DNA of 64,000 nt from positions 160,216 to 224,215 of the forward strand of contig JAXLZV010000001.1 of NCBI GenBank assembly GCA_046350755.1. Direction: 5' to 3'. Position numbers and translations under genes: made by a program. Positions 33,811-62,885 of the stretch are shown piece by piece; position 1 is the stretch's first letter, and each line of letters begins with the position of its first letter. A model generated the notes under the pieces. It saw nothing but the letters and a program-made list of their open reading frames with translations, was not told where the DNA came from and ran no database searches. Origin of the DNA: Candidatus Saccharimonadota bacterium (GTDB lineage Bacteria; Patescibacteriota; Saccharimonadia; CAILAD01; GCA-016700035).

Positions 33811-34734
33811 TCATGTATCGACCCACTGCGCCACAAGCCGCTCCATGCTAGACGGACCGTATTGCCAGTAGTTCGCTGCTACCTGTACAGCCGCGGCACC
33901 GCAGGCCAGAAACTCCGAGACATCACTCCCCGATGTGATCCCTCCGACGCCGACCACCGGGATCGGTGAACCGCAGCCGCGCAAGGCTTCGACCCACTGC
34001 AGGACTTGGCCGAGGGCAATCGGCTTGTAGGCTGGTCCGGAAAAGCCACCATACTTGGTCGATAGATATGGCTTGCCATCGTCGATGACGACGGCGTTGG
34101 GGAACGTATTGGTAGAAGCGATATAGAGCCGATTCTCAACCGTGCCAGCAGCCAAGCCAGCAATTCGCTCCGCGACGTGAGCAAGCTCTACCGGATTTGA
34201 ATAAGGTGAGACCTTTAGACCAATCGGCCCCCTCCAGAAGGTGGCGAGATCCAAGAGATGAGTCTCAATCCCTTCGATGTCAAAGCTCAAGATCAGCTTT
34301 TGCTGCCGTTCTGACCAAACGTTCGGACAGCCGAGATTCAGCTCGATTGCATCCAGCTGCCAGTCCTTGAAGTGCTTCAGGAGCCCATACCAACCAACCG
34401 GGTATTCCATCGGAGCAAACGAGAGAATCACCCGCTTGCCAGCTTCGCGAGCCATACCCAGCAGCATCAGCCAACGCGAATGCCAATAGTCGTAGTAATC
34501 AAGGCCAGGATCAGGCAAGCCCATGGCATTGAGCATATAGCCAAGCTCATGGTCGTAATACGAGCGCGGCTCTGGATTTCCTACCCGCTCGCTATACGTA
34601 CCGGTCAGCGACCCAAGCACAATAGCGCTGGCAGACGAGTTGACTGCCGCTTCGAACTCTGCGAGGGTCTTGACCATGCCGGGAGCAACCATGATGGGGT
34701 GCTCAAGTTCCATACCTGCAAGCTTGATCGTCAT
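33811..34734 (-). CDS. pyrD: Dihydroorotate dehydrogenase, class 1A-like (catalytic Cys)
   Basis: RVGNPEPRSYYDHELGYMLNAMGLPDPGLDYY, ELNLGCPNV (Cys base), GGFSGPAYKPIALGQV and VVGVGGITSG all resemble L. lactis PyrDA closely. Confidence 0.8.
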   Translation of the reverse strand: MTIKLAGMELEHPIMVAPGMVKTLAEFEAAVNSSASAIVLGSLTGTYSERVGNPEPRSYYDHELGYMLNAMGLPDPGLDYYDYWHSRWLMLLGMAREAGKRVILSFAPMEYPVGWYGLLKHFKDWQLDAIELNLGCPNVWSERQQKLILSFDIEGIETHLLDLATFWRGPIGLKVSPYSNPVELAHVAERIAGLAAGTVENRLYIASTNTFPNAVVIDDGKPYLSTKYGGFSGPAYKPIALGQVLQWVEALRGCGSPIPVVGVGGITSGSDVSEFLACGAAAVQVAANYWQYGPSSMERLVAQWVDT

Positions 34735-34808
34735 GTTAGCTACTTTCGTAAAAGGTACATTCGGTCCGGGTTATTCTGCAAGACTATTGATAATATCTCA
34801 AGCATAAA

Positions 34809-34838
34809 AAGAACCGGTCTGGAGAAAAAACTCCAAAC
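34809..34838 (-). terminator. Candidate terminator between pyrC and pyrD
   Basis: On the minus strand, CCGGTTTGGAG-TTTTTT-CTCCAGACCGG (10 of 11 bp) is followed by a T-rich run. Confidence 0.4.
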
Positions 34839-34853
34839 CGGCTATGTACCAGA

Positions 34854-35921
34854 TCAATCAGCGTTATTACCAAGATCACTGAACCAGAGAACTGATTCGA
34901 CTTGCCAATCGAGGATCTCGCCGGCCTTCCAAGGCTTCATGCCAAAGTATTCCTCCGGCACTCGCCATGGCTGGCGCCACAGAGTGATGCGGGGCCGCCG
35001 CTCGAGTGAGGGTCCGACCCCATAGAAGCTCGCGCCATTTGCGCACATGAAAGCCAAGAAATTCTCCCACTTTTCCGCACCGCCCTGTGCGTCGAAGTGC
35101 TGCCAGAGCACCGGAATTGCCACTGGGCTCGACCACACGCCGGCCGCTCCACCGAGCTTGCGTTCGATGAGATGTGGCGCGGAATCTGAGCCGAAGAAGA
35201 TCTTCGGTCGCCCAGCCGCCTCGAGGATGATGCGCGCCAAGTAGTCACGATCATCTGGCGTCTTGGCGATCGGCATGCAATTGCAATGCGGATCCTGTAT
35301 GGCATCCATCTGGGTGATGAATGGATGATGAGCCGTGATGCTGGCCGCCACCGTCTCCGGCGACGTCAACACATAATCGAGCATGCGCCGGTCGGACACG
35401 TGTTCGACAACGATCTTGAGCTCAGGGTAGGCGTCCACCAACCACTGAAGATGAGGAATGAAGCCGAATTCTCGCTTTTGAGGATCCGACTCCACGTCAG
35501 GTGTCAGCTCAGCGTGAAGACACAACACCATGCCAACGTCTTGCATCGCAGCCAGAACCTCTGGCTGAAGATCACGCGGCGAAGATAGGCCGCTGCCCGA
35601 GTTGGTCGTACCACCATGCGGATAATACTTGGCGGCAATAGCCAGCGGATGGGCGGCCTCGATATCCGACGCCGTCGTGTCGGGCGTGAGATACAGGGCC
35701 ATCCGCGTCCCAATCGAGTTGAGCGCACGCGAGTGGCCAACCAGCCGACCGTAATAGTCGGCCACCGCCTCGGCGGTCGTCACTGGCGGTGTCAGGTTCG
35801 GCATCACCAGATTGTTCAAGAACTGATGTCCGGATAGATCCACGACCCGTTCCATGAGAATGCCGTCGCGCAGGTGGACGTGCCAATCGTCCGGTATCGG
35901 CATTTCGATTCGAATAGTCAT
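34854..35921 (-). CDS. pyrC: Dihydroorotase, class II (E. coli PyrC type)
   Basis: N-terminal DWHVHLRDG metal-ligand motif; the 355-aa length and overall similarity match type II DHOase. GC is visibly elevated, shown by the many long antisense ORFs here. Confidence 0.85.
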   Translation of the reverse strand: MTIRIEMPIPDDWHVHLRDGILMERVVDLSGHQFLNNLVMPNLTPPVTTAEAVADYYGRLVGHSRALNSIGTRMALYLTPDTTASDIEAAHPLAIAAKYYPHGGTTNSGSGLSSPRDLQPEVLAAMQDVGMVLCLHAELTPDVESDPQKREFGFIPHLQWLVDAYPELKIVVEHVSDRRMLDYVLTSPETVAASITAHHPFITQMDAIQDPHCNCMPIAKTPDDRDYLARIILEAAGRPKIFFGSDSAPHLIERKLGGAAGVWSSPVAIPVLWQHFDAQGGAEKWENFLAFMCANGASFYGVGPSLERRPRITLWRQPWRVPEEYFGMKPWKAGEILDWQVESVLWFSDLGNNAD

Positions 35922-38065: not shown

Positions 38066-38794
38066 TCAGCGGCCGTGATGACCAAGCGTCTCGATCTGAA
38101 CTGCTTCATCCAGACAATCCGACACGATTCCACAGAGCTCATCAGCAGCCTCATCCAGCCGATCGTTGATGACTACATGAGGCCATGTGCCAAGGATCTC
38201 CGGGATCTCCCACCTGGCGCGCATGAGTTTTTGCTCGATGACCGTCTCCTCGTCTCCGCGACCGACCAAGCGCATTTCGAGCGCTCCCAGCATTTCGGTC
38301 TGAACGATGATCGATCCGGCAATGGCGAACCAGTAGCGACCCTGCCCATCGTCAAGCAATGCTAGACGCTGGGCTTCCTGCAGCCGACTCGTTCCGGCTG
38401 GCGTCAGACAGGGCGGCAGGATGCCGATCAGATGAACGGCCGGGAAATTCTCCACCAACATTGACTTGGCGAATAGCTGGAGGGCGCCATTGACATCGAG
38501 ATCTCGCAACTCGATGCCTGGCGTGCTCGGATTGACGTAGGAGCCGTAGTAGCCGCCAGTGGCATTCTGCGAGTGCTCGACGATACTGCCGGCCGCGCGT
38601 TCGCGCATGAAGTCTTCGACCGACAGATAGACGTACTTCGAATTGCCGGCGTCGTCATAGTCGTCTTCGCGCGGTTGGCGCGTCGTCGCCTTGCGGCCGA
38701 CAATCAGTTGCGGGAACTGCTTCATGAGGTACTTCATCAGCGTGTCCTTGCCGACACCTTCCGGCCCAGAGATACAGAAAATGTGCGAAGTCAT
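38066..38794 (-). CDS. gmk: Guanylate kinase homolog with a ~35-aa insertion
   Basis: ISGPEGVGKDTL (P-loop), ATTRQPREDDYDDAGNSKYVYLSVEDF (GMP-binding TTRxPRxGE..G.DY.FVS.E.F), EH...GGYYG, ILPP and RGDEETVIEQKLMRA...VVINDRLDEA all match E. coli Gmk segment-for-segment. It is GC-rich like the rest of island 1. Confidence 0.8.
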   Translation of the reverse strand: MTSHIFCISGPEGVGKDTLMKYLMKQFPQLIVGRKATTRQPREDDYDDAGNSKYVYLSVEDFMRERAAGSIVEHSQNATGGYYGSYVNPSTPGIELRDLDVNGALQLFAKSMLVENFPAVHLIGILPPCLTPAGTSRLQEAQRLALLDDGQGRYWFAIAGSIIVQTEMLGALEMRLVGRGDEETVIEQKLMRARWEIPEILGTWPHVVINDRLDEAADELCGIVSDCLDEAVQIETLGHHGR

Positions 38795-42489: not shown

Positions 42490-42604
42490 TGTACGCCAAG
42501 AACGCGAGCGTTTTAATCTTGACTTTTATGCTCATTTATGATATCGTGCGCGAGTTCTATGTAATCGCATGGATAACCTTCACAACCTAGAGAAAGAGGA
42601 CGCC

Positions 42605-43288
42605 ATGAAGTCTTCAGGTGAGTTGCTCCGAGAATATCTCGAGCAGCAGCCCGAGAAGATCAAGGATGTGCGCAATTTCTGTAATGTTGCTAGCAAGACC
42701 GTGAGATCGTGGCTCAAGGGTACCAACCCGAAGGGCATCACACAGTGTAGACTCTTCGTCTACCTACTCGAACAGCAGCTAGCGCCAGCAGAGTTGCTCA
42801 AGACCGAACCCGACATCATTCTCCTTGCCGTTCTGGTGGCTCACGACTATGTGAGCTCTCAAGAGGCCATGAAGGTGATGGGCTCTACCTCCAAGTCTGA
42901 TCAGCAGCTCTGGGGTTGGATCCGTAGCGACACACAGCCGCTGCCCAAAGCCCTAGAGCTCCTGCAAGACTGGCTGGATGCAGTCGATGGCGATCGCTCA
43001 CGAAGACTGATCGCCGCAGAATTTCTCGGTACGACAACCGTGGCGGAGCAATCCCCCGCAAACGTCATTCCGTTGTCGTTCGACTCGAGCGACCAGATCA
43101 TCGAGAATTTGGCAGCATTGTTGTCAGCGGTCTACCCACTCGCCAAGCGCGTGGAAGCCGATGACTTCAGTAATGCCGACCGTGAACGCCTTCGGGCGCT
43201 GATCGGTGAAGACCAGTTCTTCAAGCTCACGAACGCCCTGACCCGCCTCTCCGGCACCAAGGCACGTTCGTACACCCAGTCCATTTAA
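42605..43288 (+). CDS. Hypothetical protein with a putative N-terminal helix-turn-helix
   Basis: An AAAGAGGA RBS lies 6 nt before the ATG at 42605 (alternative ATG at 42569). EYLEQQPEKIKDVRNFCNVASKTVRSWLKG resembles an XRE-type HTH. The C-terminus is unknown. Confidence 0.5.
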   Translation: MKSSGELLREYLEQQPEKIKDVRNFCNVASKTVRSWLKGTNPKGITQCRLFVYLLEQQLAPAELLKTEPDIILLAVLVAHDYVSSQEAMKVMGSTSKSDQQLWGWIRSDTQPLPKALELLQDWLDAVDGDRSRRLIAAEFLGTTTVAEQSPANVIPLSFDSSDQIIENLAALLSAVYPLAKRVEADDFSNADRERLRALIGEDQFFKLTNALTRLSGTKARSYTQSI

Positions 43289-43311
43289 CCCAACACCCCA
43301 AGGAGTACGGC

Positions 43312-45009
43312 ATGACCCGCCGTCGACGTCCCCGTCCAACCCAGGGTGGCCGTAAGGCCCCCGCGACCCCGGCGACACCTCAGCCCATTCGGGATAAGGT
43401 GTCGTTCAACCAGGGCAAGGTCATCATGCACCTTGCCAAGTCGACCTACACCACGTTGATCCAGGTGATCGCTGAGTGCGTCCAGAACGCACTCGACGCC
43501 GGTGCAACCGTCATCGACATCGCTGTCGATGAGAAGCGGCGCAGCATCGTCGTTGCCGACAACGGCGGTGGCGTGACTCTGGAGAAGTTCCACGAGGCCC
43601 TTGGCTCCGTTGGGCATGGGATCAAGGATCCCGGCTCACTCGGACGCTTCGGCCTCGGCCTCATCTCGCCGCTCGATAAGTGCGACTACTACACCTTCAG
43701 CTCCTGGCTTCCCGGCGAGTCGAAGGGGTGGTGCTGGACCTTCCGGGCCGGTGAGATCGAGGCGATGGCCGACGAAGTCGACATCCCTCGGGCTGGTGCC
43801 AAGCGTCACGCTGGCGCTGAGTGGAATACCATCGTGCGCATCCACCGCTACACCTCCGACTCGCAGACGGCCGCAATGACGGCTGAACGCGTCGAGGAAT
43901 TCGTGCAGTCCAAGCTGGGACCCACCATGCGCAAGCGCGGTGTGACCTGCCGGCTGCACTTCGGTGGCCCAGACGGCGAGGTCGTCCAGAAGACGATCAA
44001 GCCGACCGACTTCACCGGTGAGCCTTTCGAGATCACGATCTACACCGAGCCCGACGCGGGCGAAGTGGAGTTCGAGCTCTACCGCGCCCGCAAGACGACC
44101 AAGGGTCGTCAGGGCATGGTGAGTCTCTCGGAAGCGGATGCCCCATACCCGATCACCTTCACCGAGTTCAAGCGGCAGGCTCACGCCTTCCTCGGCGACG
44201 ACGTGAAGAAGGCTCTCAGCTCCGGCTACTTTGAGGGCATCATTCGAGCCAAGAAGGTGGAGCTGCATCCCAACCGCCGCAAGTTCGTCTGGAATGACGC
44301 GGTTGTCGGGCTCTGCATCGCCATCGAACAGTGGTTCGAAGACATCGGGCACAAGCTCTACACCGATGAGCAGGTCCAGGAAGAGGAGGCTCGCCTCCAG
44401 CGCCTGGGCGTGCAGACGCTCGACCGGCTGAAGGATCTCCTCAAGCTGGAAGAGTCGGAACACCTGCGCAAGATCATCGAAAGCCTGCATGTCGGCTCGA
44501 TCGGCAGTGGGCACAACGAGCTCCCCAGCTCGGGGGACATGGATGAGCGTGGTTTGCGCTCTGGTCAGGGCGGCACGGGCAAGCCCCGCAACCGCAATGG
44601 TCAGACCAAGCCACGTGATCCGTCGAAGCCCAAGCAGCCCGAACGGACCGGCGACAAGCCGGGTGTCTCGGTTGGCCCCGAGGGCCAGCACCGCAAGGTG
44701 GTGCGCGACAGCTCGACCGGTATCTCCATCTGCCACGAGATCCTGCCCGGTTCCGACCGACTGTGGGAGATCGACGCAGCGTCGGCGATGATCTACATCA
44801 ACGTGCGTCACCCGGTGTTCTTGCTCGTCGAGCACGCCGACACGTACGTCTTGCAGCTGCAGGAGTGGATCGTGCTGCAGGCGCTGTCGTTGCTGATGTT
44901 CCCGGTCGACAGCCGAGAGCTCCTCCACGACTACGCAGACAGCTACGCTCGCGAGTTCGTGGTGGTCTCGATCCTCGGATCGAGACAGCGCCGCCGCGGT
45001 AGCGTCTGA
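43312..45009 (+). CDS. GHKL/Bergerat-fold ATPase (MORC / MutL-N / HATPase_c_3-like) with an unknown C-terminal region
   Basis: AAGGAG RBS. The N-box is IAECVQNALDAGAT, the G1 box is VADNGGGVT and the G2 box is LGRFGLGLISP. Downstream is a Gly/Lys/Pro/Arg-rich low-complexity linker, then a C-terminal domain of unknown function. Confidence 0.7.
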   Translation: MTRRRRPRPTQGGRKAPATPATPQPIRDKVSFNQGKVIMHLAKSTYTTLIQVIAECVQNALDAGATVIDIAVDEKRRSIVVADNGGGVTLEKFHEALGSVGHGIKDPGSLGRFGLGLISPLDKCDYYTFSSWLPGESKGWCWTFRAGEIEAMADEVDIPRAGAKRHAGAEWNTIVRIHRYTSDSQTAAMTAERVEEFVQSKLGPTMRKRGVTCRLHFGGPDGEVVQKTIKPTDFTGEPFEITIYTEPDAGEVEFELYRARKTTKGRQGMVSLSEADAPYPITFTEFKRQAHAFLGDDVKKALSSGYFEGIIRAKKVELHPNRRKFVWNDAVVGLCIAIEQWFEDIGHKLYTDEQVQEEEARLQRLGVQTLDRLKDLLKLEESEHLRKIIESLHVGSIGSGHNELPSSGDMDERGLRSGQGGTGKPRNRNGQTKPRDPSKPKQPERTGDKPGVSVGPEGQHRKVVRDSSTGISICHEILPGSDRLWEIDAASAMIYINVRHPVFLLVEHADTYVLQLQEWIVLQALSLLMFPVDSRELLHDYADSYAREFVVVSILGSRQRRRGSV

Positions 45010-45030
45010 TCCTTTCTCTCTAGTTGTTTC

Positions 45031-45062
45031 GCCGGAGCCCTTTGGGCTCCGGTTTTCTTTTT
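45031..45062 (+). terminator. Strong rho-independent terminator after the GHKL ATPase gene
   Basis: GCCGGAGCCC-TTT-GGGCTCCGG followed by TTTTCTTTTT. Confidence 0.65.
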
Positions 45063-45081
45063 ATTCAGCGTCATGAATCTA

Positions 45082-45110
45082 TTGACTTTAAACCCTTATG
45101 ATTGTAATAT
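45082..45110 (+). promoter_or_regulatory. Candidate sigma-70 promoter for the 45155..45835 gene
   Basis: TTGACT, a 17-nt spacer and TAATAT, with an AAGGAG RBS before the GTG at 45155. Confidence 0.4.
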
Positions 45111-45154
45111 ATTTTTACTGTTCGCCCGAACATTCGTACCTTACAAGGAGCACT

Positions 45155-45835
45155 GTGGATACACCAACCGAACCCACCAAACGACAGCCGGGAGCCGCAT
45201 CGACGCGCTCCTGCAGCCTGAACGAAGCTCTGTCGAGCTTCTATGCCCTCAAGGGATGGCTCAGACGGCGCCAGCTCGATGACTGGCTGCCACAGCTCGC
45301 CATCGTCTGGACCGACCGCAACGGCCATGCCGTTCTGGCAATCCGTGGCGACAACGCCATGGGCCCTGCACCGCAGGATGCCAATCAGGCGGCCCAAGCC
45401 GCATTGCGCCCGCACTGCATCGAGCAGGGAGCTGCCACCATTCAGACAGCCGCCAAGCAGGTGCTGGGGGCAGTTGGGGTCTACGGACGCAGTCCAGCCG
45501 ACAACCATCTCGTCGCCTGCCTGGCAGCGGAGTTGGTCTTCGAGCCAGATATGCCAGCAGAACTCCTTGAGGTCTGCGTCGAGGAGCGCTTCCAGCAAGA
45601 CGGCCTCGAAGTCCCAGACGTGCCATTGGCGGTCTCGCCAGGTGTGTCATCATTCGCAGGTTTGCAAGCGGTGATGGCTGGAGCTGGCGTGTTGAGGCTC
45701 TTGCCTGGCCAAACCTACGGCTGGCCGAGCCAGCTCGATCCGCCGCTGACGCAACCACAAGCCGGTGTCAGACTCATCACCGAGCGTGACATCCCCGGCC
45801 ACGTACCGGGGCATGGTGGTGGACTCTTCGGCTGA
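45155..45835 (+). CDS. Hypothetical GC-rich protein (last gene of island 2)
   Basis: A GTG start 5 nt after the AAGGAG RBS; Ala/Gly/Pro-rich with no recognisable motif. The ORF-track start at 45098 runs into the AT-rich promoter and is unlikely. Confidence 0.45.
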   Translation: MDTPTEPTKRQPGAASTRSCSLNEALSSFYALKGWLRRRQLDDWLPQLAIVWTDRNGHAVLAIRGDNAMGPAPQDANQAAQAALRPHCIEQGAATIQTAAKQVLGAVGVYGRSPADNHLVACLAAELVFEPDMPAELLEVCVEERFQQDGLEVPDVPLAVSPGVSSFAGLQAVMAGAGVLRLLPGQTYGWPSQLDPPLTQPQAGVRLITERDIPGHVPGHGGGLFG

Positions 45836-58375: not shown

Positions 58376-59356
58376 ATGCGCCACTACAACGCCATCTCAC
58401 GCATCAAAAAGGGTCGAAAATTCGTCTACATTGGCAAAGATGGTGAGGTGCGCAACAAAAAGACACTGGCCTATATCGAGTCGCTCGCCATTCCGCCGGC
58501 TTGGGATGCGGTAACGATCTCCAGTTCACCAAATGCCAAGGTTCTCGCCACCGGCCAAGACGCAGCTGGACGCTCACAGTCGATATACAACCCAAAGTTT
58601 CGCGCTCGGCAGGAAAAGCTAAAGTTTGACCGCATTCTCCGCTTTGCCGATGCTCTGCCTCGCCTGCGCCGTCAAATCAATACCGACCTGAGTCGCAAGC
58701 GCTTAGTCAAAGAAAAAGTATTAGCCTGTATCGTACGGCTCATCGATGAAGCCTATTTCCGCGTCGGCAACGAAAAATACGCCCGTGAAAACCACAGCTA
58801 TGGCATCACTACCCTACGCTCTAAGCACACCGACGTAACCGGCAGCACTGTGACGTTTGATTTTATCGGCAAAAGCGGCAAGCAACACATTAAGTCCATC
58901 ACCGATAAGCAGGTGGCGCGGATCGTCAAGCAGCTCGATGAGCTCCCTGGCTATGAGGTTTTTCGCTATATCGATCACGAAGGTAAGCTACACGACATCG
59001 ATAGCGCCGACGTCAATGAGTACATCAAGCAATACATGGGCGAAGAATTCAGCGCCAAGGATTTTCGAACCTGGGGCGGTACACTACTCGCCACCAGTGA
59101 ACTCCTAGCCTGCGAGCGCTTTCGCCACCGAGCCGATCGACAGCGCCAGGTGGTTGAGGTCGTACGTAATGTCGCCGAGCGACTCGGTAATACCCCAGCC
59201 GTCGCCCGCGGTAGCTACATCGATCCACGCGTGATTGAAGCCTACACCGAATCAACCCGACTGGAGAAAATCAAAGTCGCCATGGAAAAGATGCGCCCTA
59301 AAAAATACATGAGTCGCGACGAACAGGCAGTCTTGCGCCTCTTAGAAATCAGTTAA
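58376..59356 (+). CDS. DNA topoisomerase IB (bacterial/poxvirus-type)
   Basis: N-terminus YIGKDGEVRNKKTLAYIESLAIPPAWDAV, the catalytic pentad context (K...R...KDFRTWGG...H) and an active-site Tyr in ARGSYIDP; ~326 aa, as for Deinococcus TopIB. Confidence 0.75.
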   Translation: MRHYNAISRIKKGRKFVYIGKDGEVRNKKTLAYIESLAIPPAWDAVTISSSPNAKVLATGQDAAGRSQSIYNPKFRARQEKLKFDRILRFADALPRLRRQINTDLSRKRLVKEKVLACIVRLIDEAYFRVGNEKYARENHSYGITTLRSKHTDVTGSTVTFDFIGKSGKQHIKSITDKQVARIVKQLDELPGYEVFRYIDHEGKLHDIDSADVNEYIKQYMGEEFSAKDFRTWGGTLLATSELLACERFRHRADRQRQVVEVVRNVAERLGNTPAVARGSYIDPRVIEAYTESTRLEKIKVAMEKMRPKKYMSRDEQAVLRLLEIS

Positions 59357-59374
59357 GCCAACAACCGAGACTAT

Positions 59375-60397
59375 TTATGAGAAACTTTGCTGACTAAGCT
59401 TAATCATCTTGCGGTAATACGCATATGGGTAATTCAGCTTTCCGAAGCCTGGCAGTCCATGCTTTAACAGCAGATAACGCACCTGAGCGGGTGAGAGTAC
59501 ACGTACTTCCGCTAGTTCAGCAGGCTGAATCACAAAGTTTGGTGTACTATCGAGGTGAATGTGGTATGACCAAAGATGAGTTTTTGAGTAGCGACGGAAT
59601 TGTGGATGGGAGTGGTTCCAACGCCGCCGCTCGAGTAGCCGCATCGCATCAGTTTTGACCTCTATGCCGAGTTCTTCGGCTATTTCCCGCCGCATCGCCC
59701 GCTCCGGCGTCTCACCACCATCAACCGCTCCACCGACCGAAATGTCTAGTCGGCCTGGCGACAGAATAATTTGTGGTGAGCGTTTCTCCACGACAAAGCC
59801 AGCTGGAGTCGTAATGATGGCATGACAAGATCTGTGCCATAAGTCTGGATCCGCACTGGCCCATGATATTGGCAGCTGATAACCAAGCTCCCGGTCATCC
59901 CGATCTACGATATCAACCCAGCCCAACTGCGTGACCTCACGCACGAGCTCATCAACGCGCTGAGTAATCGTTCTGTATGTTCGCTCTGCAATATCGTCCT
60001 GCGCGCGGTGATCCGCGAGGTTGAGCCGATGCTTATGACCAAACTCATACCAATCATCGATATGCCAGCTTTTGGCTTTATGATGGTTAAACTCGAATCG
60101 TTTTTTCGCATCACGTAGAATGTCAGTTTGCATAAAAATAATAAGGTCCGGCCGAGATAGGCTCTCATGAGTGGTCTGAATCCTCACTGGCGACAGCCTG
60201 AGATCTAGCTTGTGATGCTGCGCGATGTGAGCAACCAGCGGTGAAATAGTGTGACGATGAGGGTAATGCTTGGAAGCTTCAATGCCACTGCACGAAAACT
60301 CAACGTTTTTCAGCTTGAGCGTCTGGGCGTAGAGTAAGGCCAAGCGACTGCGGTAGATATTCCCCCGACACACAAAATGAATATGTCTTTTTGTCAT
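59375..60397 (-). CDS. Fusion protein: low-molecular-weight phosphotyrosine phosphatase-like (arsenate-reductase fold) N-domain plus a Nudix hydrolase C-domain
   Basis: HFVCRGNIYRS is the CX5R(S/T) P-loop, and GGAVDGGETPERAMRREIAEELGI is the Nudix box. The start is taken at MTKRHIHFV (60397). Confidence 0.65.
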   Translation of the reverse strand: MTKRHIHFVCRGNIYRSRLALLYAQTLKLKNVEFSCSGIEASKHYPHRHTISPLVAHIAQHHKLDLRLSPVRIQTTHESLSRPDLIIFMQTDILRDAKKRFEFNHHKAKSWHIDDWYEFGHKHRLNLADHRAQDDIAERTYRTITQRVDELVREVTQLGWVDIVDRDDRELGYQLPISWASADPDLWHRSCHAIITTPAGFVVEKRSPQIILSPGRLDISVGGAVDGGETPERAMRREIAEELGIEVKTDAMRLLERRRWNHSHPQFRRYSKTHLWSYHIHLDSTPNFVIQPAELAEVRVLSPAQVRYLLLKHGLPGFGKLNYPYAYYRKMIKLSQQSFS

Positions 60398-60466
60398 AAT
60401 ACTTATCCTTAGTATATCAGCCAGCAAATTTGCTTAGAACCTTAAGTAGAACAGGGTTTAAATATA

Positions 60467-60495
60467 TTGCTTTTTTATACCTTTTATGCTATAAT
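60467..60495 (+). promoter_or_regulatory. Sigma-70-type promoter upstream of the metallopeptidase leader
   Basis: TTGCTT, a 17-nt spacer and TATAAT (60490..60495). Confidence 0.45.
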
Positions 60496-60513
60496 ATGAG
60501 CCTCACCTTGAGA

Positions 60514-60640
60514 AGGCGGCTATCTGGTATCTCTCCTGGAATCAACTAGGAAACACTTATCTGATACTAATCTGTCCAACAGATAGCAGATAGCCGTCTT
60601 CACCTGAAGGCGCGTCCACTCTGGATCCGCCCTAGGAGGG
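60514..60640 (+). promoter_or_regulatory. Structured ~130-nt 5' leader with nested inverted repeats and five TATCTG/CAGATA hexamer copies; candidate riboregulator or MITE-like insert
   Basis: CGGCTATCTG (60517..60526) pairs with CAGATAGCCG (60587..60596), and GTATC pairs with GATAC inside it. CAGATAG is tandemly duplicated. A CACC segment can pair with the GGTG of the AGGAGGGTG RBS region. Confidence 0.35.
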
Positions 60641-60645
60641 TGAAA

Positions 60646-61662
60646 ATGAACCTGAACAAGAAGATGCTGAGTCGGCTCATGCTGGTTCTGATGCTGGCCC
60701 TCGGGCTGACATCGGCCGCCTGTGCCGCACCATCCCCTCCCACCTGGGAGAACCCAACCACGTGGGATTTCACGCTGCACGTCAGCGTGACTTCTGACAT
60801 GGTCACCAAGTACGGTGGCCTGACTGGCGTCCGCGCCAAGGTCGACCAACAGCTCGTCACCGTGAACCAGCACTACGCTGGCTTCGACAAGCCCATCCGT
60901 TGGATCGTCAAGGACCTGGTGGTCTACTCTGGATCCGCATTGACCCAAGCTCAGCTCGGGACAAATGGGGCCAACTACTCCCTCACCTACACCGAACAAC
61001 CGGTGCCCGAGAATGGTGGTTGGCGGCCATGGATCTACTCGATCATCATCAATTGGCTTCCGACCGACGGTGGTGTCTTCGGACAGTACGGTGCCTCCTC
61101 GCTGATCCACGAACTGGGTCACGCGCGAGGCGGTATCGACATGTATGGACTGCGAGTCGATGGGGTGAACAATCCCGTCAATGGTGCAGCCTATGTGCCA
61201 CCGGCCAGCTGGATGAATCTGTGGTACCTCCCCGAGCAGCAGCTCTGGGATCAGTACACCAGGAACATCGTCAACGCTTCGGCGACGACGGTGTACAATG
61301 ACGACCGAGTCGTCATGAACTCGCTGCCTGCAACCTATCGGGTCAAGGTGGTGAATTCCAGCGGCAACCTGGTTCCCAACGCGACAGTGTCGGTCTACCC
61401 GGTGGATTGGTTCGCCTACAAGGTGACGCCAACCGCCATCATGGCCGGTACCAGTGCTACGAACGGTCTCTGGACTCTCCCGTCCGACCCGTTCGGTCCA
61501 TCGCTGAGTGCTCCCAAGTGGCACCTCTGGCGCCCGCTCGTCTTGGTGACGGCTTCGGTCGGCACCCAGAAGGGCTACGCCTGGCTGTCACTGCCAGACG
61601 CCGGGAACGCGTACTTCGCGAACCCGACCGCACCCTTCCAGCTGACCGTCGTGGTTGGCTAA
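60646..61662 (+). CDS. Secreted (signal peptide, possible lipoprotein) zinc metallopeptidase with an HExxH motif and a C-terminal beta-rich domain
   Basis: An AGGAGG RBS lies 6 nt before the ATG at 60646. The signal peptide is MLSRLMLVLMLALGLTSAACAAP, the zinc motif is SLIHELGHARGG, and the C-terminus has Ig-like YRVKVVNSSGNLVPNATVSVYPV. Confidence 0.65.
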   Translation: MNLNKKMLSRLMLVLMLALGLTSAACAAPSPPTWENPTTWDFTLHVSVTSDMVTKYGGLTGVRAKVDQQLVTVNQHYAGFDKPIRWIVKDLVVYSGSALTQAQLGTNGANYSLTYTEQPVPENGGWRPWIYSIIINWLPTDGGVFGQYGASSLIHELGHARGGIDMYGLRVDGVNNPVNGAAYVPPASWMNLWYLPEQQLWDQYTRNIVNASATTVYNDDRVVMNSLPATYRVKVVNSSGNLVPNATVSVYPVDWFAYKVTPTAIMAGTSATNGLWTLPSDPFGPSLSAPKWHLWRPLVLVTASVGTQKGYAWLSLPDAGNAYFANPTAPFQLTVVVG

Positions 61663-61684
61663 GCTTCTGTCCTGTTTCATAAGG

Positions 61685-61720
61685 CCCCTGGGGCGCTTCG
61701 GCGCCCTTGGGGTCTTCTAC
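61685..61720 (+). terminator. Candidate terminator after the metallopeptidase gene
   Basis: GGGCGC-TTCG-GCGCCC (with flanking CCCCT/TGGGG extension) followed by TCTTCTACTTT. Confidence 0.45.
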
Positions 61721-61769
61721 TTTATACTCATGGCTGGTCAAGGTATAATCACTCGGTAGTAGGCAACTT

Positions 61770-61846
61770 GGGTAATTAGCTCAGCTGGTTAGAGCGCTGC
61801 ATTCACATTGCAGAGGTCACAGGTTCGAGTCCTGTATTACCCACCA
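61770..61846 (+). tRNA. tRNA-Val (anticodon CAC)
   Basis: GGGTAATTAGCTCAGCTGGTTAGAGC..., anticodon loop UUCACAU and a 3' ACCA. Upstream there is a TTTATA, a 17-nt spacer and TATAAT. Confidence 0.9.
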
Positions 61847-61847
61847 C

Positions 61848-61923
61848 GGGGCTATAGCTCAGCTGATAGAGCGCTGCATTCGCATTGCAGAGGTCGGGAG
61901 TTTGAATCTCCCTAGCTCCACCA
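61848..61923 (+). tRNA. tRNA-Ala (anticodon CGC)
   Basis: GGGGCTATAGCTCAGCTGATAGAGC..., a G3:U70 pair in the acceptor stem (GGGGCTA/TAGCTCC), anticodon loop UUCGCAU and a 3' ACCA. Confidence 0.9.
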
Positions 61924-61926
61924 CCG

Positions 61927-61955
61927 TTGAAATCTCGATTATTTCAGGTTATAAT
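61927..61955 (+). promoter_or_regulatory. Consensus sigma-70 promoter for tRNA-Val(TAC)
   Basis: TTGAAA (61927..61932), a 17-nt spacer and TATAAT (61950..61955), 10 nt before the tRNA 5' end. Confidence 0.5.
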
Positions 61956-61965
61956 ATGTCGACTT

Positions 61966-62042
61966 GGGTGATTAGCTCAGCTGGCTAGAGCATCTCGTTT
62001 ACACCGAGAGGGTCGGGGGTTCGAGTCCCTCATCACCCACCA
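61966..62042 (+). tRNA. tRNA-Val (anticodon TAC)
   Basis: GGGTGATTAGCTCAGCTGGCTAGAGC..., anticodon loop UUUACAC and a 3' ACCA. Confidence 0.9.
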
Positions 62043-62050
62043 TAAAAAGT

Positions 62051-62074
62051 GCCCCTTGCGGGGCTCTTTTTTTT
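62051..62074. terminator. Bidirectional terminator (tRNA cluster on plus; the 62073..62384 gene on minus)
   Basis: GCCCC-TTGC-GGGGC, with TTTTTTTT on plus and an A-run giving TTTTTAT on minus. Confidence 0.6.
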
Positions 62075-62384
62075 ACGATTTCTGCTGAGTATCTGGGTTT
62101 TCTGCTGGTGAAACAACTGGCGTTTGCCCCGTCTCATACCGCTCAGCCGCCGGCACTACCGGGACCTCCCCACTATCGGCTCGCGTCTGAAGATCCTGCA
62201 CGCGGGCTTCCTGACGGGCCTTCATCGCGACATCATCCTCCGCCTTAGCTTGTGCTAGTTCGGCCGGGGTTGCAGCCCTTTCGCCTAACATCATCTTCTT
62301 AAGTCGATCAGCTAGTCCGATGTGCTCTCGCTTATCTTTGAGCTGACCTTCTCCGTTGCCTGGCTGTGATTGTTCTGGGTTCAT
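62073..62384 (-). CDS. Small hypothetical hydrophilic protein
   Basis: A 103-aa ORF with plausible coding character and a charged, Ala/Glu-rich sequence; no motif recognised. Confidence 0.35.
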   Translation of the reverse strand: MNPEQSQPGNGEGQLKDKREHIGLADRLKKMMLGERAATPAELAQAKAEDDVAMKARQEARVQDLQTRADSGEVPVVPAAERYETGQTPVVSPAENPDTQQKS

Positions 62385-62441
62385 AGTAAGACTCTCCTTT
62401 TCTTCGAGAATAGTGTATCATAGTGGCGTTCCCGCTATCTC

Positions 62442-62526
62442 GGGCGAGTGGTGGAATTGGTATACACGACGGACTTAAAATCCGTTGCCGCAAGGCTTGT
62501 GGGTTCGAGTCCCACCTCGCCCACCA
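62442..62526 (+). tRNA. tRNA-Leu (anticodon TAA)
   Basis: Acceptor GGGCGAG/CTCGCCC, anticodon loop CUUAAAA, a long variable arm and a 3' ACCA. Confidence 0.9.
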
Positions 62527-62585
62527 TACTTATGAATATGCCCCAGACCTCGATGAGGCCTGGGGCATGGTCGTAAAGAAACGAG

Positions 62586-62885
62586 CTAGTCGCGCGGATC
62601 CATGGCAGCAACAGCGCCACCCGTGACAATGATTGTCCGGCGTGTCTCGACTCGGCTGAGCCGGTCTGTCAGCTCACCAACCAAGTCTTCAAGCTCGGCT
62701 ATGCGCCGATCCTTATGTCGATGCCGGACATTAGCGGCGTGCAGCTGCGACTGAACCTCGAGAAAACGAGTATGTCCTGCATCGAGACGCCGCTCAAGCT
62801 CAACGATTTGACGCTTGGCGCGCAATGCGCAGTCTTCATGACAACATGGTTGCTCGATTCCATTCTGGGGTTCTGAATGAGACAT
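62586..62885 (-). CDS. Small hypothetical coiled-coil protein
   Basis: A 99-aa ORF with heptad-like VELERRLDAGH...IAELEDLVGELTDRL. A stem-loop (62536..62566) lies downstream. Confidence 0.3.
   Translation of the reverse strand: MSHSEPQNGIEQPCCHEDCALRAKRQIVELERRLDAGHTRFLEVQSQLHAANVRHRHKDRRIAELEDLVGELTDRLSRVETRRTIIVTGGAVAAMDPRD

What the first reader, a model, noticed from the sequence alone, without database searches (positions are those of the whole stretch)
60450..61720. Single-gene high-GC island encoding a secreted HExxH metallopeptidase beside a tRNA cluster
The gene at 60646..61662 has the same foreign GC-rich composition as the other two islands. It carries a clear signal peptide (possibly a lipobox, LTSAAC), an HELGH zinc site and an Ig-like C-terminal domain. 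It lies between an AT-rich consensus promoter and the tRNA-Val/Ala/Val cluster; tRNA loci are classical integration hotspots. A horizontally acquired secreted protease is a plausible host-interaction or nutrient-scavenging factor for a surface-attached symbiont.
Basis: partly seen in the sequence, partly recalled or inferred. Interest (0 to 1): 0.6.

Follow-up and report, generated by a model that had tools for sequence, protein, structure and literature searches.

The report
Conserved GC-rich lipoprotein metalloprotease gene
This Saccharibacteria gene for a membrane-anchored zinc protease looks foreign because it is unusually GC-rich, but distant relatives carry it at the same place with the same odd composition and a conserved folded RNA leader, so it is an old resident whose composition is actively maintained, not a recent import.

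Summary

Eighteen other Saccharibacteria-type loci carry the ortholog, and those with enough flank show the same neighbours (TopoIB, gene, tRNA-Val, tRNA-Leu). All have the same excess: GC3 0.62-0.88 against flanks of 0.43-0.51. There are no tRNA-derived repeats and no integrase.

Synonymous sites are saturated between lineages, yet polarised substitutions imply an equilibrium GC3 of 0.84, against 0.58 for the neighbouring TopoIB gene. The composition is therefore maintained, not left over from a transfer.

All orthologs also share an extended -10 promoter and a strongly folded leader of about 100-165 nt (z -3.5 to -8.5). The leader pairs its 5' end with the Shine-Dalgarno sequence and has no Rfam match.

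What remains unexplained is why GC3 is held so high and what opens the leader.

The parts
60467..60495 (+). Promoter: -35 TTGCTT (60467-60472), 17-nt spacer, extended -10 TGCTATAAT (60487-60495)
   Evidence: Read from the sequence. The 29-nt motif TTGCTTTTTTATANNTTTTATGCTATAAT occurs once in the window, with 0 expected by chance. It is conserved upstream of the orthologs.
60502..60645 (+). Structured 5' leader of about 145 nt. The transcription start is inferred from the -10 box, not measured.
   Evidence: MFE -63.4 kcal/mol, z = -5.3 to -5.9. All 19 orthologous leaders have z between -3.5 and -8.5. No Rfam match at E <= 10 in the window or E <= 1 in seven orthologous loci.
60503..60509 (+). 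P0 5' strand, UCACCUU (anti-Shine-Dalgarno), pairs with 60637-60643
   Evidence: MFE structure. An equivalent pyrimidine-rich 5' strand pairs with the SD region in the MFE of most of the 19 leaders (16 by my reading). In 15 of 19, the probability that the SD region pairs with the first 35 nt is 0.33-0.87, against about 0.2 in controls.
60512..60601 (+). P1 long hairpin. The basal stem is GAAGGCGGCUAUCUG / CAGAUAGCCGUCUUC; the apical part varies between orthologs.
   Evidence: Ten-bp basal stem predicted by RNAalifold on 17 leaders, with compensatory changes at 5 pairs. The GGYGGC...GCYRYC signature occurs once per Saccharibacteria-type locus, always upstream of this gene, and once in the window.
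60603..60636 (+). P2 hairpin immediately upstream of the Shine-Dalgarno sequence
   Evidence: MFE. Four of its 6 pairs show changes on both sides in alignment A5.
60635..60640 (+). Shine-Dalgarno GGAGGG, 5 nt upstream of the ATG; its 3' part (60637-60640) lies within the 3' strand of P0 (60637-60643)
   Evidence: Sequence; MFE.
60646..61662 (+). CDS, 338 aa: lipoprotein metzincin-like zinc metallopeptidase
   Evidence: The exact protein is seen on 42 contigs. A >=90%-identical cluster member is named 'hypothetical protein [Candidatus Saccharibacteria bacterium]' by NCBI.
60646..60723 (+). Signal peptide with lipobox TSAA|C; Cys26 codon at 60721-60723
   Evidence: Pattern match in the window protein and in all 17 other orthologs tested from Saccharibacteria-type loci. 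The Cys is at least 90% conserved.
60757..61326 (+). Catalytic domain (about residues 38-227), metzincin fold
61108..61140 (+). Zinc-binding motif HELGHARGGID (H155, E156, H159, G162, D165) = HExxHxxGxxD
   Evidence: H155, E156, G158, H159 and D165 are invariant and G162 is at least 90% conserved in A1. In the 41-sequence A2, G162 is invariant and H155, E156, G158, H159, R161 and D165 are at least 90% conserved.
61213..61215 (+). Met190, candidate Met-turn (family consensus SIMNYPY)
   Evidence: Invariant in A1 and A2.
61327..61659 (+). C-terminal beta-sandwich (about residues 228-338), carboxypeptidase-regulatory / transthyretin-like
61681..61716 (+). Terminator-like hairpin followed by a U-rich tail
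   Evidence: dG -30 kcal/mol, z = -5.45. Orthologs have CCCCCGAC-loop-GTCGGGGG followed by a T-run at the same place.

Best explanation
A vertically inherited, clade-specific Saccharibacteria gene, transcribed as a single-gene unit.

Its product is exported by a lipoprotein signal peptide and acylated at Cys26. A short, often Thr/Ser/Pro-rich linker tethers it to the outer face of the membrane. There it acts as a zinc endopeptidase of the metzincin type. The inferred zinc ligands are H155, H159 and D165, E156 is the inferred general base, and M190 is the inferred Met-turn. A transthyretin-like beta-sandwich follows, probably for substrate or surface binding.

There is no prodomain. I infer that expression is instead gated at translation. 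The roughly 145-nt leader folds into a three-helix junction in which the 5' end pairs with the Shine-Dalgarno sequence, so an unknown trigger must open this helix.

The GC-rich, C/G-ending codon usage is not a scar of recent transfer. It is a stationary, gene-specific property, with an equilibrium GC3 of about 0.84. A force confined to the CDS holds it there in every lineage; selection on synonymous sites or the mRNA is most likely, and biased gene conversion is possible.

Shown: gene, motifs, predicted fold, synteny, composition, leader conservation, substitution spectra. Inferred: catalytic activity, lipidation, substrate, translational control, and the cause of the GC3 bias.
For: Identity and fold:
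- HExxHxxGxxD and M190 are conserved.
- Model pLDDT 87.
- Lipobox in all orthologs.

Resident, not island:
- Same neighbours in loci L009-L014, L017, L019, L021, L035 and L037.
- Gene GC3 0.62-0.88 against flanks of 0.43-0.51 in 19 loci including the window. It is the top GC3 outlier among its neighbours in 4 of the 5 loci examined.
- The next outgroups in the tree, L027 and P0021, are also Saccharibacteria.
- No tRNA-derived repeats.

Maintained composition:
- TopoIB next door is 76-91% identical in protein, with 4-fold sites at chance identity. The target's 4-fold sites are also near chance between deep orthologs.
- Polarised synonymous changes: 23 AT>GC from 39 AT sites against 48 GC>AT from 441 GC sites. 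The per-site ratio is 5.4, implying an equilibrium GC3 of 0.84. Neutral decay to 0.5 is rejected at p = 5e-9.
- TopoIB control: implied equilibrium 0.58.
- L010 vs L013: TopoIB 96% aa and 52% 4-fold identity; target 88% aa and 83% 4-fold identity.

Not expression-type codon bias: NNC/(NNC+NNU) is 0.80 in the target and 0.26-0.55 in rpsG, rpsL, and the rpoB/rpoC-like genes.

Leader.
Against: - No biochemical or expression data exist. The structure is a prediction, and the geometry of the metal site was not inspected.
- SD sequestration rests on MFE and partition-function folds. The P0 cognate versus non-cognate duplex test was weak (-9.9 vs -8.1 kcal/mol), and four leaders (L009, L017, L032, L027) show little P0 pairing.
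- The structure scored was derived from the same sequences.
- The polarised counts use parsimony with moderately distant outgroups. The expected bias would overcount GC>AT, so the test is conservative.
- The low synonymous divergence between L010 and L013 could reflect a recent allele exchange rather than synonymous constraint.
- The gene was found in only a handful of the Saccharibacteria species genomes scanned (pattern-limited). An old acquisition by the ancestor of this subclade is therefore possible.
Confidence: 0.7

Rival explanations
1. Recent horizontally acquired single-gene island inserted next to a tRNA cluster. The GC-rich composition would be that of the donor and not yet ameliorated.
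For: The gene is a GC3 outlier in the window. tRNA genes lie 108 nt downstream. The wider family occurs in other phyla.
Against: - Same site, same composition and same promoter and leader in orthologs whose synonymous sites are saturated.
- No direct repeats of a tRNA 3' end and no integrase.
- The substitution spectrum is at equilibrium, not decaying.
- The tRNA neighbours are themselves conserved synteny.
Confidence: 0.03
2. Ancient import from a high-GC Gram-positive bacterium (for example an actinobacterial host) into the ancestor of this Saccharibacteria subclade. The gene was then domesticated with a native promoter and leader, and its GC3 was subsequently held high by selection or biased conversion.
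For: - Homologs at 49-52% identity lie on contigs of GC 0.66-0.69 with a LysM-type neighbour.
- Single-module relatives have actinobacterial-looking signal peptides.
- The gene was detected in few Saccharibacteria species genomes.
- Distant homologs match their own genome's GC (L015 0.37/0.375; L016 0.66/0.68).
Against: - In the NJ tree the two high-GC sequences nest inside a 100%-supported clade of Saccharibacteria orthologs.
- The next outgroups (L027, with the same promoter and leader; P0021, named Saccharibacteria by NCBI) are Saccharibacteria. This favours transfer from the symbiont lineage to a high-GC bacterium.
- Inner nodes are poorly supported (bootstrap 7-48%), so the direction is unresolved.
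Confidence: 0.25
3. The high GC3 is produced by GC-biased gene conversion at a recombination hotspot, for example frequent allele exchange of a fast-evolving surface protein in naturally competent cells. It would not then reflect selection on codons or mRNA.
For: - The protein evolves fast: 42-52% identity where TopoIB keeps 76-91%.
- L010 vs L013 shows higher nucleotide identity in the gene (91%) than in the upstream flank (82%), as expected after allele exchange.
- TopoIB GC3 is slightly above the local average in several loci.
Against: - The composition steps coincide with the CDS ends: leader 0.50, promoter 0.28. Conversion tracts should not respect start and stop codons.
- From my own knowledge, the size of the effect (GC3 about 0.45-0.55 to 0.8-0.88) exceeds what has been reported for bacterial biased conversion.
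- Gene subclades match leader types, indicating co-inheritance.
Confidence: 0.25
4. The protein is not a peptidase. It would be a binding or structural surface protein, or a hydrolase of non-peptide bonds, that keeps a metzincin-like scaffold.
For: No member has been characterised, and every named member is 'hypothetical protein'. Distant members are fused to carbohydrate-binding modules, a dockerin and GH97.
Against: The catalytic Glu, both His, the Gly, the Asp and the Met are invariant or at least 90% conserved across 61 sequences. All top structural neighbours are active metalloendopeptidases.
Confidence: 0.1

Closest known systems
Adamalysin / reprolysin metzincins (MEROPS M12B: ADAMs, ADAMTS, snake-venom metalloproteinases)
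   Different: - The third metal ligand is Asp (HExxHxxGxxD), not His.
- 10-18% sequence identity.
- No Pfam Reprolysin hit even at E <= 10.
- No prodomain or cysteine switch, and no disintegrin domain.
- N-terminal lipid anchor and a C-terminal transthyretin-like domain.
Snapalysin (MEROPS M7, Streptomyces small neutral protease)
   Different: - Snapalysin is a single domain of about 130 residues.
- It is a lower structural match than the adamalysins.
- No Pfam M7 hit.
- The present family has about 190 catalytic residues plus a beta-sandwich.
Ulilysin / pappalysin (M43), archaemetzincin (M54), mirolysin, fragilysin
   Different: Lower scores and no sequence-level match.
Shine-Dalgarno-sequestering 5' leaders (riboswitch expression platforms, RNA thermometers, the RNase III-activated adhE leader of E. 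coli). Analogy from general knowledge.
   Same: A long-range helix between the 5' end and the SD closes a multi-helix junction. P1 is a long, near-perfect hairpin.
   Different: No Rfam family matches. The trigger is unknown. The conserved sequence in the P1 base (GGYGGC/GCYRYC) and repeated SD-like and anti-SD-like pentamers have no described counterpart that I could identify.
Compositional (GC) islands used as markers of horizontal transfer, and the amelioration model (general knowledge)
   Same: A sharp, gene-sized GC3 excess beside tRNA genes.
   Different: The excess is shared by syntenic orthologs beyond synonymous saturation, and substitution spectra are stationary at GC3 of about 0.84.

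Membership tests
Metzincin clan of zinc metallopeptidases | Extended zinc-binding motif HExxHxxGxxH/D | tested here: met
   HELGHARGGID, residues 155-165. H155, E156, H159 and D165 are invariant and G162 is at least 90% conserved in 20 sequences. All are invariant or at least 90% conserved in 41 more distant ones.
Metzincin clan of zinc metallopeptidases | Conserved Met-turn downstream of the motif | tested here: inconclusive
   M190, 25 residues after D165, is invariant in both alignments, with consensus SIMNYPY.
Metzincin clan of zinc metallopeptidases | Catalytic-domain fold | tested here: met
Metzincin clan of zinc metallopeptidases | Zinc binding and peptidase activity | not testable with these tools
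   Needs biochemistry.
Adamalysin / reprolysin (M12B) | Third ligand His followed by Asp (HExxHxxGxxHD); sequence match to the Reprolysin family models | tested here: not met
   Asp occupies the third-ligand position. No Pfam or NCBIfam peptidase hit at E <= 10.
Adamalysin / reprolysin (M12B) | N-terminal prodomain (cysteine switch) | tested here: not met
   The first beta-strand of the catalytic domain starts at about residue 40, directly after the lipobox and linker.
Snapalysin (M7) | Sequence match to the family model; single domain of about 130 residues | tested here: not met
Bacterial lipoprotein (Lgt/LspA substrate) | Positively charged n-region, hydrophobic core, lipobox with Cys at position 15-35 | tested here: met
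   A PROSITE-style pattern matches the window protein (Cys26) and all 17 other orthologs tested from Saccharibacteria-type loci.
Bacterial lipoprotein (Lgt/LspA substrate) | lgt and lspA present in the genome; acylation shown | not tested
   Not searched in the window. Needs the whole genome and biochemistry.
tRNA-associated genomic island | Direct repeats derived from the tRNA 3' end at both borders | tested here: not met
   Only tRNA-to-tRNA similarities were found in 59300-62600.
tRNA-associated genomic island | Integrase or other mobility gene | tested here: not met
   The neighbours are TopoIB, an LMWPc-NUDIX gene, tRNAs and small ORFs.
tRNA-associated genomic island | Absent from the same site in related genomes | tested here: not met
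   Present in every Saccharibacteria locus retrieved that had enough flank. All loci were retrieved through the gene itself, so empty sites could not be seen.
Carboxypeptidase-regulatory / transthyretin-like domain (PF13620 type) | Sequence match to the family model; 7-stranded beta-sandwich | tested here: inconclusive
Any described cis-regulatory RNA (Rfam 15) | Covariance-model match | tested here: not met
   No hit over the leader at E <= 10 in the window or E <= 1 in 7 orthologous loci.

The most novel reading that the evidence does not exclude
Three readings go beyond the safe account.

1. The coding sequence is under strong, lineage-wide selection at synonymous sites for a GC-rich, C/G-ending codon set. 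This set runs opposite to the usage of the translation genes. It would form part of one regulatory design together with a previously undescribed Shine-Dalgarno-sequestering leader RNA.
2. This would be a clear natural case where a textbook 'foreign' compositional island is in fact an ancient resident kept off the genomic equilibrium.
3. In addition, the homologs on high-GC contigs may record gene transfer from the epibiont lineage to a high-GC (host-type) bacterium.
Probability: 0.35. Interest if true: 0.75.

Novelty: new variant of a known kind. Interest (0 to 1): 0.58.

Why it matters
1. Method. Atypical GC beside tRNA genes is routinely read as horizontal transfer. Here the same signal is a stably maintained property of a vertically inherited gene. 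Island callers will mislabel it, and the force that holds GC3 at about 0.84 in genomes whose neighbouring genes sit near 0.4-0.6 needs an explanation.

2. Biology of ultrasmall epibionts. A fast-evolving, surface-tethered metalloprotease under its own tight translational control is a credible candidate for host-surface remodelling or peptide scavenging in auxotrophic Saccharibacteria. It belongs to a family of at least 611 sequence clusters with no Pfam model and no characterised member.

3. RNA. The leader is a candidate new cis-regulatory RNA class in the Candidate Phyla Radiation, where, to my knowledge, few regulatory RNAs are known.

Tried and rejected
- **Pfam, NCBIfam, PDB sequence searches.** With the single protein and with the 41-member profile there was no peptidase family hit. 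The profile matched only T9SS sorting domains from fused members.
- **AFDB fold search.** The library was not available.
- **tRNA-derived direct repeats.** None were found.
- **Antisense ORF 60520..61524 (334 aa).** The open antisense frame spans the whole gene in some orthologs (up to 354/354 codons) but only 96-170 codons in others. I read it as a by-product of avoiding TTA, CTA and TCA codons, and rejected it as a gene.
- **Translational-selection explanation for GC3.** Ribosomal-protein and RNA-polymerase genes in the window do not share the bias.
- **Link between codon usage and the adjacent tRNA-Val(CAC)/tRNA-Ala(CGC).** There is no special enrichment of GTG or GCG.
- **Repeated re-acquisition from high-GC donors.** This is disfavoured because leader types follow the gene subclades and breakpoints would have to fall exactly at the start and stop codons.
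- **P0 covariation by cognate versus non-cognate duplex energies.** Only a weak difference was seen, because all 5' strands are generic anti-SD-like.
- **RNAalifold on raw MAFFT alignments.** It recovered P1 only, because the apical region has large indels.
- **Other copies of the promoter or the P1 signature.** None in the window or elsewhere in the loci.
- **Polymorphism analysis among nine near-identical copies of the locus.** Only 2 SNPs in the gene, too few to use.
- **Literature searches.** They found no description of this family or of the composition effect in Saccharibacteria.
Full report
**Observation.** The ORF runs from ATG 60646 to the stop at 61660-61662 (338 aa). Its GC is 0.605 and its GC3 0.773, in a window of GC 0.524. 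Only one other of about 49 ORFs has a higher GC3; ordinary genes lie at 0.50-0.60. The excess is uniform along the gene and ends sharply at its borders: promoter 0.28, leader 0.50. Upstream lies TTGCTT, 17 nt, then TGCTATAAT at 60467-60495, an extended -10 promoter that is unique in the window. Downstream there is a strong hairpin at 61681-61716. The tRNA-Val(CAC), tRNA-Ala(CGC) and tRNA-Val(UAC) genes follow, each group with its own promoter-like site.

**The protein.**
- No Pfam, NCBIfam or PDB sequence match exists.
- The word-indexed search found 19 relatives at 41-51% identity. A profile search of 1.84 billion representatives found 611 clusters, 143 of them at E <= 1e-30, many multidomain.
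- Across 20 close and 41 distant sequences the motif HExGHxRGxxD (H155, E156, H159, G162, D165) is invariant or at least 90% conserved. M190, 25 residues downstream, is invariant.
- That is the extended metzincin motif with Asp as third ligand. From general knowledge this is the snapalysin variant.
- The N-terminus matches a lipoprotein pattern in the window protein (Cys26) and in all 17 other orthologs tested from Saccharibacteria-type loci. A Thr/Ser/Pro-rich linker usually follows. There is no prodomain.
- Distant members carry T9SS sorting tails, carbohydrate-binding modules, dockerins or a GH97 domain, but none has a Pfam peptidase domain. This points to an extracellular enzyme family without a curated model.
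- Every source that names a member calls it "hypothetical protein".

**Is it an island?**
- The organism is a Saccharibacterium. A >=90%-identical cluster member is labelled "Candidatus Saccharibacteria bacterium" by NCBI, and the relatives come from Saccharibacteria MAGs.
- In every locus with enough flank, the ortholog lies downstream of the bacterial type IB topoisomerase gene. Sometimes an LMWPc-NUDIX gene or another gene lies in between.
- It lies next to tRNA-Val(UAC) and/or tRNA-Ala(CGC), usually just upstream of them. tRNA-Leu(UAA), a DUF975/UPF0259 membrane protein and an FAD oxidase follow.
- No repeats derived from a tRNA end flank the gene, and no integrase is near.
- In 19 Saccharibacteria-type loci including the window, the gene has GC 0.55-0.65 and GC3 0.62-0.88, while the flanks have GC 0.43-0.51. 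In 4 of the 5 loci examined it has the highest GC3 of the neighbourhood; in L035 a small upstream ORF is marginally higher.

**Composition is maintained, not residual.**
- The adjacent TopoIB proteins are 76-91% identical, and their 4-fold sites are at chance identity. These genomes have therefore diverged beyond synonymous saturation.
- The protease gene is also near saturation between deep orthologs, yet GC3 stays high everywhere.
- I polarised synonymous changes in three independent triplets of closer relatives. This gave 23 AT>GC changes from 39 ancestral AT sites and 48 GC>AT changes from 441 GC sites.
- The per-site rate ratio is 5.4, which implies an equilibrium GC3 of 0.84, equal to what is observed. 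Neutral decay towards 0.45-0.6 is rejected (p between 1e-10 and 3e-6).
- The same analysis on TopoIB gives 0.58.
- Between L010 and L013, TopoIB is 96% identical in protein and 52% at 4-fold sites. The protease is 88% and 83%. By my own arithmetic this is roughly four-fold lower synonymous divergence, despite three-fold higher amino-acid divergence. It fits either constraint on synonymous sites or a recent allele exchange.
- The bias is general: NNC over NNU is 0.80 and NNG over NNA is 0.81. The genes I take to be rpsG, rpsL, rpoB and rpoC (judged from their N-termini, my knowledge) have 0.26-0.55. It is therefore not the usual expression-linked codon bias.
- Distant homologs in other phyla match their own genomes: L015 0.37 vs 0.375, L016 0.66 vs 0.68. 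The effect therefore belongs to the Saccharibacteria lineage, not to the protein family.
- Because the composition steps coincide with the start and stop codons, I favour selection acting on the CDS or mRNA over biased gene conversion. Neither could be tested directly.

**Origin.**
- Two groups of homologs (L023/L024 and L031/L038) are 49-52% identical to the window protein. They lie on short contigs of GC 0.66-0.69, with a LysM-type neighbour and none of the Saccharibacteria promoter or leader. They probably come from a high-GC Gram-positive bacterium; that taxon is inferred, not shown.
- In a neighbour-joining tree they fall inside a 100%-supported clade otherwise made of Saccharibacteria orthologs.
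- The next two outgroups are also Saccharibacteria: L027, which has the same promoter and leader type, and P0021, which NCBI names as such.
- This favours transfer out of the symbiont lineage rather than into it. Inner nodes have only 7-48% support, so the direction remains open.
- Gene subclades coincide with leader subtypes, indicating that leader and CDS are co-inherited.

**The leader.**
- All 19 loci share the promoter and a leader of about 100-165 nt between the -10 box and the start codon.
- Each leader, folded on its own, is far more stable than its dinucleotide shuffles (z -3.5 to -8.5).
- Most adopt the same layout. P0 is a helix between a pyrimidine-rich 5' segment (UCACCUU, GGUUCUUU and variants) and the Shine-Dalgarno region. 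P1 is a long hairpin whose base is GGYGGC/GCYRYC and whose tip varies in length. P2 is a hairpin just before the Shine-Dalgarno sequence.
- The P1 base is recovered by RNAalifold, with compensatory changes at 5 of 10 pairs.
- On ten leaders, a structure projected from the individual folds has 91.7% of cells paired, against 34-52% when slid. It has 9 pairs changed on both sides, against 4.0 +/- 1.3 in shuffles (0 of 500). The caveat is that this structure was derived from the same sequences.
- Support for P0 is mostly conservation rather than covariation, and four leaders show little P0 pairing.
- The P1 signature and the promoter occur only upstream of this gene in about 390 kb examined.
- Rfam has no match.
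- I infer translational repression by Shine-Dalgarno sequestration, relieved by an unknown trigger such as a ligand, a protein, temperature or RNase III cleavage of P1. The alternation of anti-SD-like and SD-like pentamers (CACCUU, GAAGG, CCUUC, GAAGG, GGAGG) would allow a two-state switch. This is speculation.

**Verdict.** It is a lipoprotein of metzincin fold with an Asp-type zinc motif, from an unmodelled family. The evolutionary interpretation, a recent island at a tRNA hotspot, is rejected. What is there is a conserved, self-contained expression unit, and two of its features are not explained by current knowledge: a gene-specific stationary GC3 and an undescribed structured leader.

Noticed in passing
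window 59844-59854, 60620-60630, 60928-60938: The exact 11-mer TCTGGATCCGC occurs three times in the window, all on the + strand and all within 1.1 kb. One copy is in the LMWPc-NUDIX gene, one in leader hairpin P2 and one in the protease CDS. The leader and CDS copies extend to 16 of 17 nt, and the NUDIX and CDS copies to 18 of 20 nt. The repeat is not conserved in orthologous loci. Its meaning is unknown.
   Followed up: partly
window 42569-45835: This is the other strong GC island. It encodes a 565-aa HATPase_c_3 protein (43312-45009, GC3 0.83) with neighbours at 42569-43288 and 45098-45835 (GC3 0.67-0.68). The proteins look cytoplasmic and the block may be a genuine mobile or defence-type insertion. 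I did not test whether it is also conserved with its composition in relatives.
   Followed up: partly
window 33811-35921 and 38066-38794: A dihydroorotate dehydrogenase, an amidohydrolase-type gene and a guanylate-kinase-like gene have moderately raised GC3 (0.64-0.70).
   Followed up: no
window 59375-60427 (-): The LMWPc-NUDIX fusion gene between TopoIB and the protease is an indel among close relatives. It is present in L010 and absent from L025, although their flanks and protease genes are 97% identical.
   Followed up: partly
window 60520-61524 (-): A 334-aa antisense ORF covers most of the protease gene. Its length varies widely among orthologs (96 to 354 codons). I read it as a by-product of avoiding TTA, CTA and TCA codons.
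   Followed up: yes
L023/L024 and L031/L038/L039: Homologs 49-52% identical lie on short contigs of GC 0.66-0.69 next to a LysM-type protein. They lack the Saccharibacteria promoter and leader, yet they nest inside the Saccharibacteria clade in the tree. This may be symbiont-to-host-type transfer.
   Followed up: partly
L017 4947-8730: A diversity-generating-retroelement-like pair (RVT_1 reverse transcriptase and bAvd) lies about 4 kb upstream of the ortholog. Two GC3-rich ORFs (0.72, 0.75) of unknown function sit between it and TopoIB.
   Followed up: no
window 58376-59356 (+) and orthologous loci: A bacterial type IB topoisomerase (Top1B_N_bact and Topoisom_I) is conserved at 76-91% identity across all these Saccharibacteria loci.
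   Followed up: no
window 61770-61923; L036 2639-2789: tRNA-Val(CAC) and tRNA-Ala(CGC), which both decode G-ending codons, are inserted between the protease gene and tRNA-Val(UAC) in the window. L036 likewise has two tRNA genes right after its protease gene; their identity was not determined. Several other loci have only tRNA-Val(UAC) at this position. The protease gene shows no particular enrichment of GTG or GCG.
   Followed up: partly
window, whole: GC skew is negative along the whole window, and most genes are on the - strand. The protease gene, TopoIB and a few others lie on the + strand, where third positions are C-rich (0.36-0.43) even in ordinary genes.
   Followed up: no
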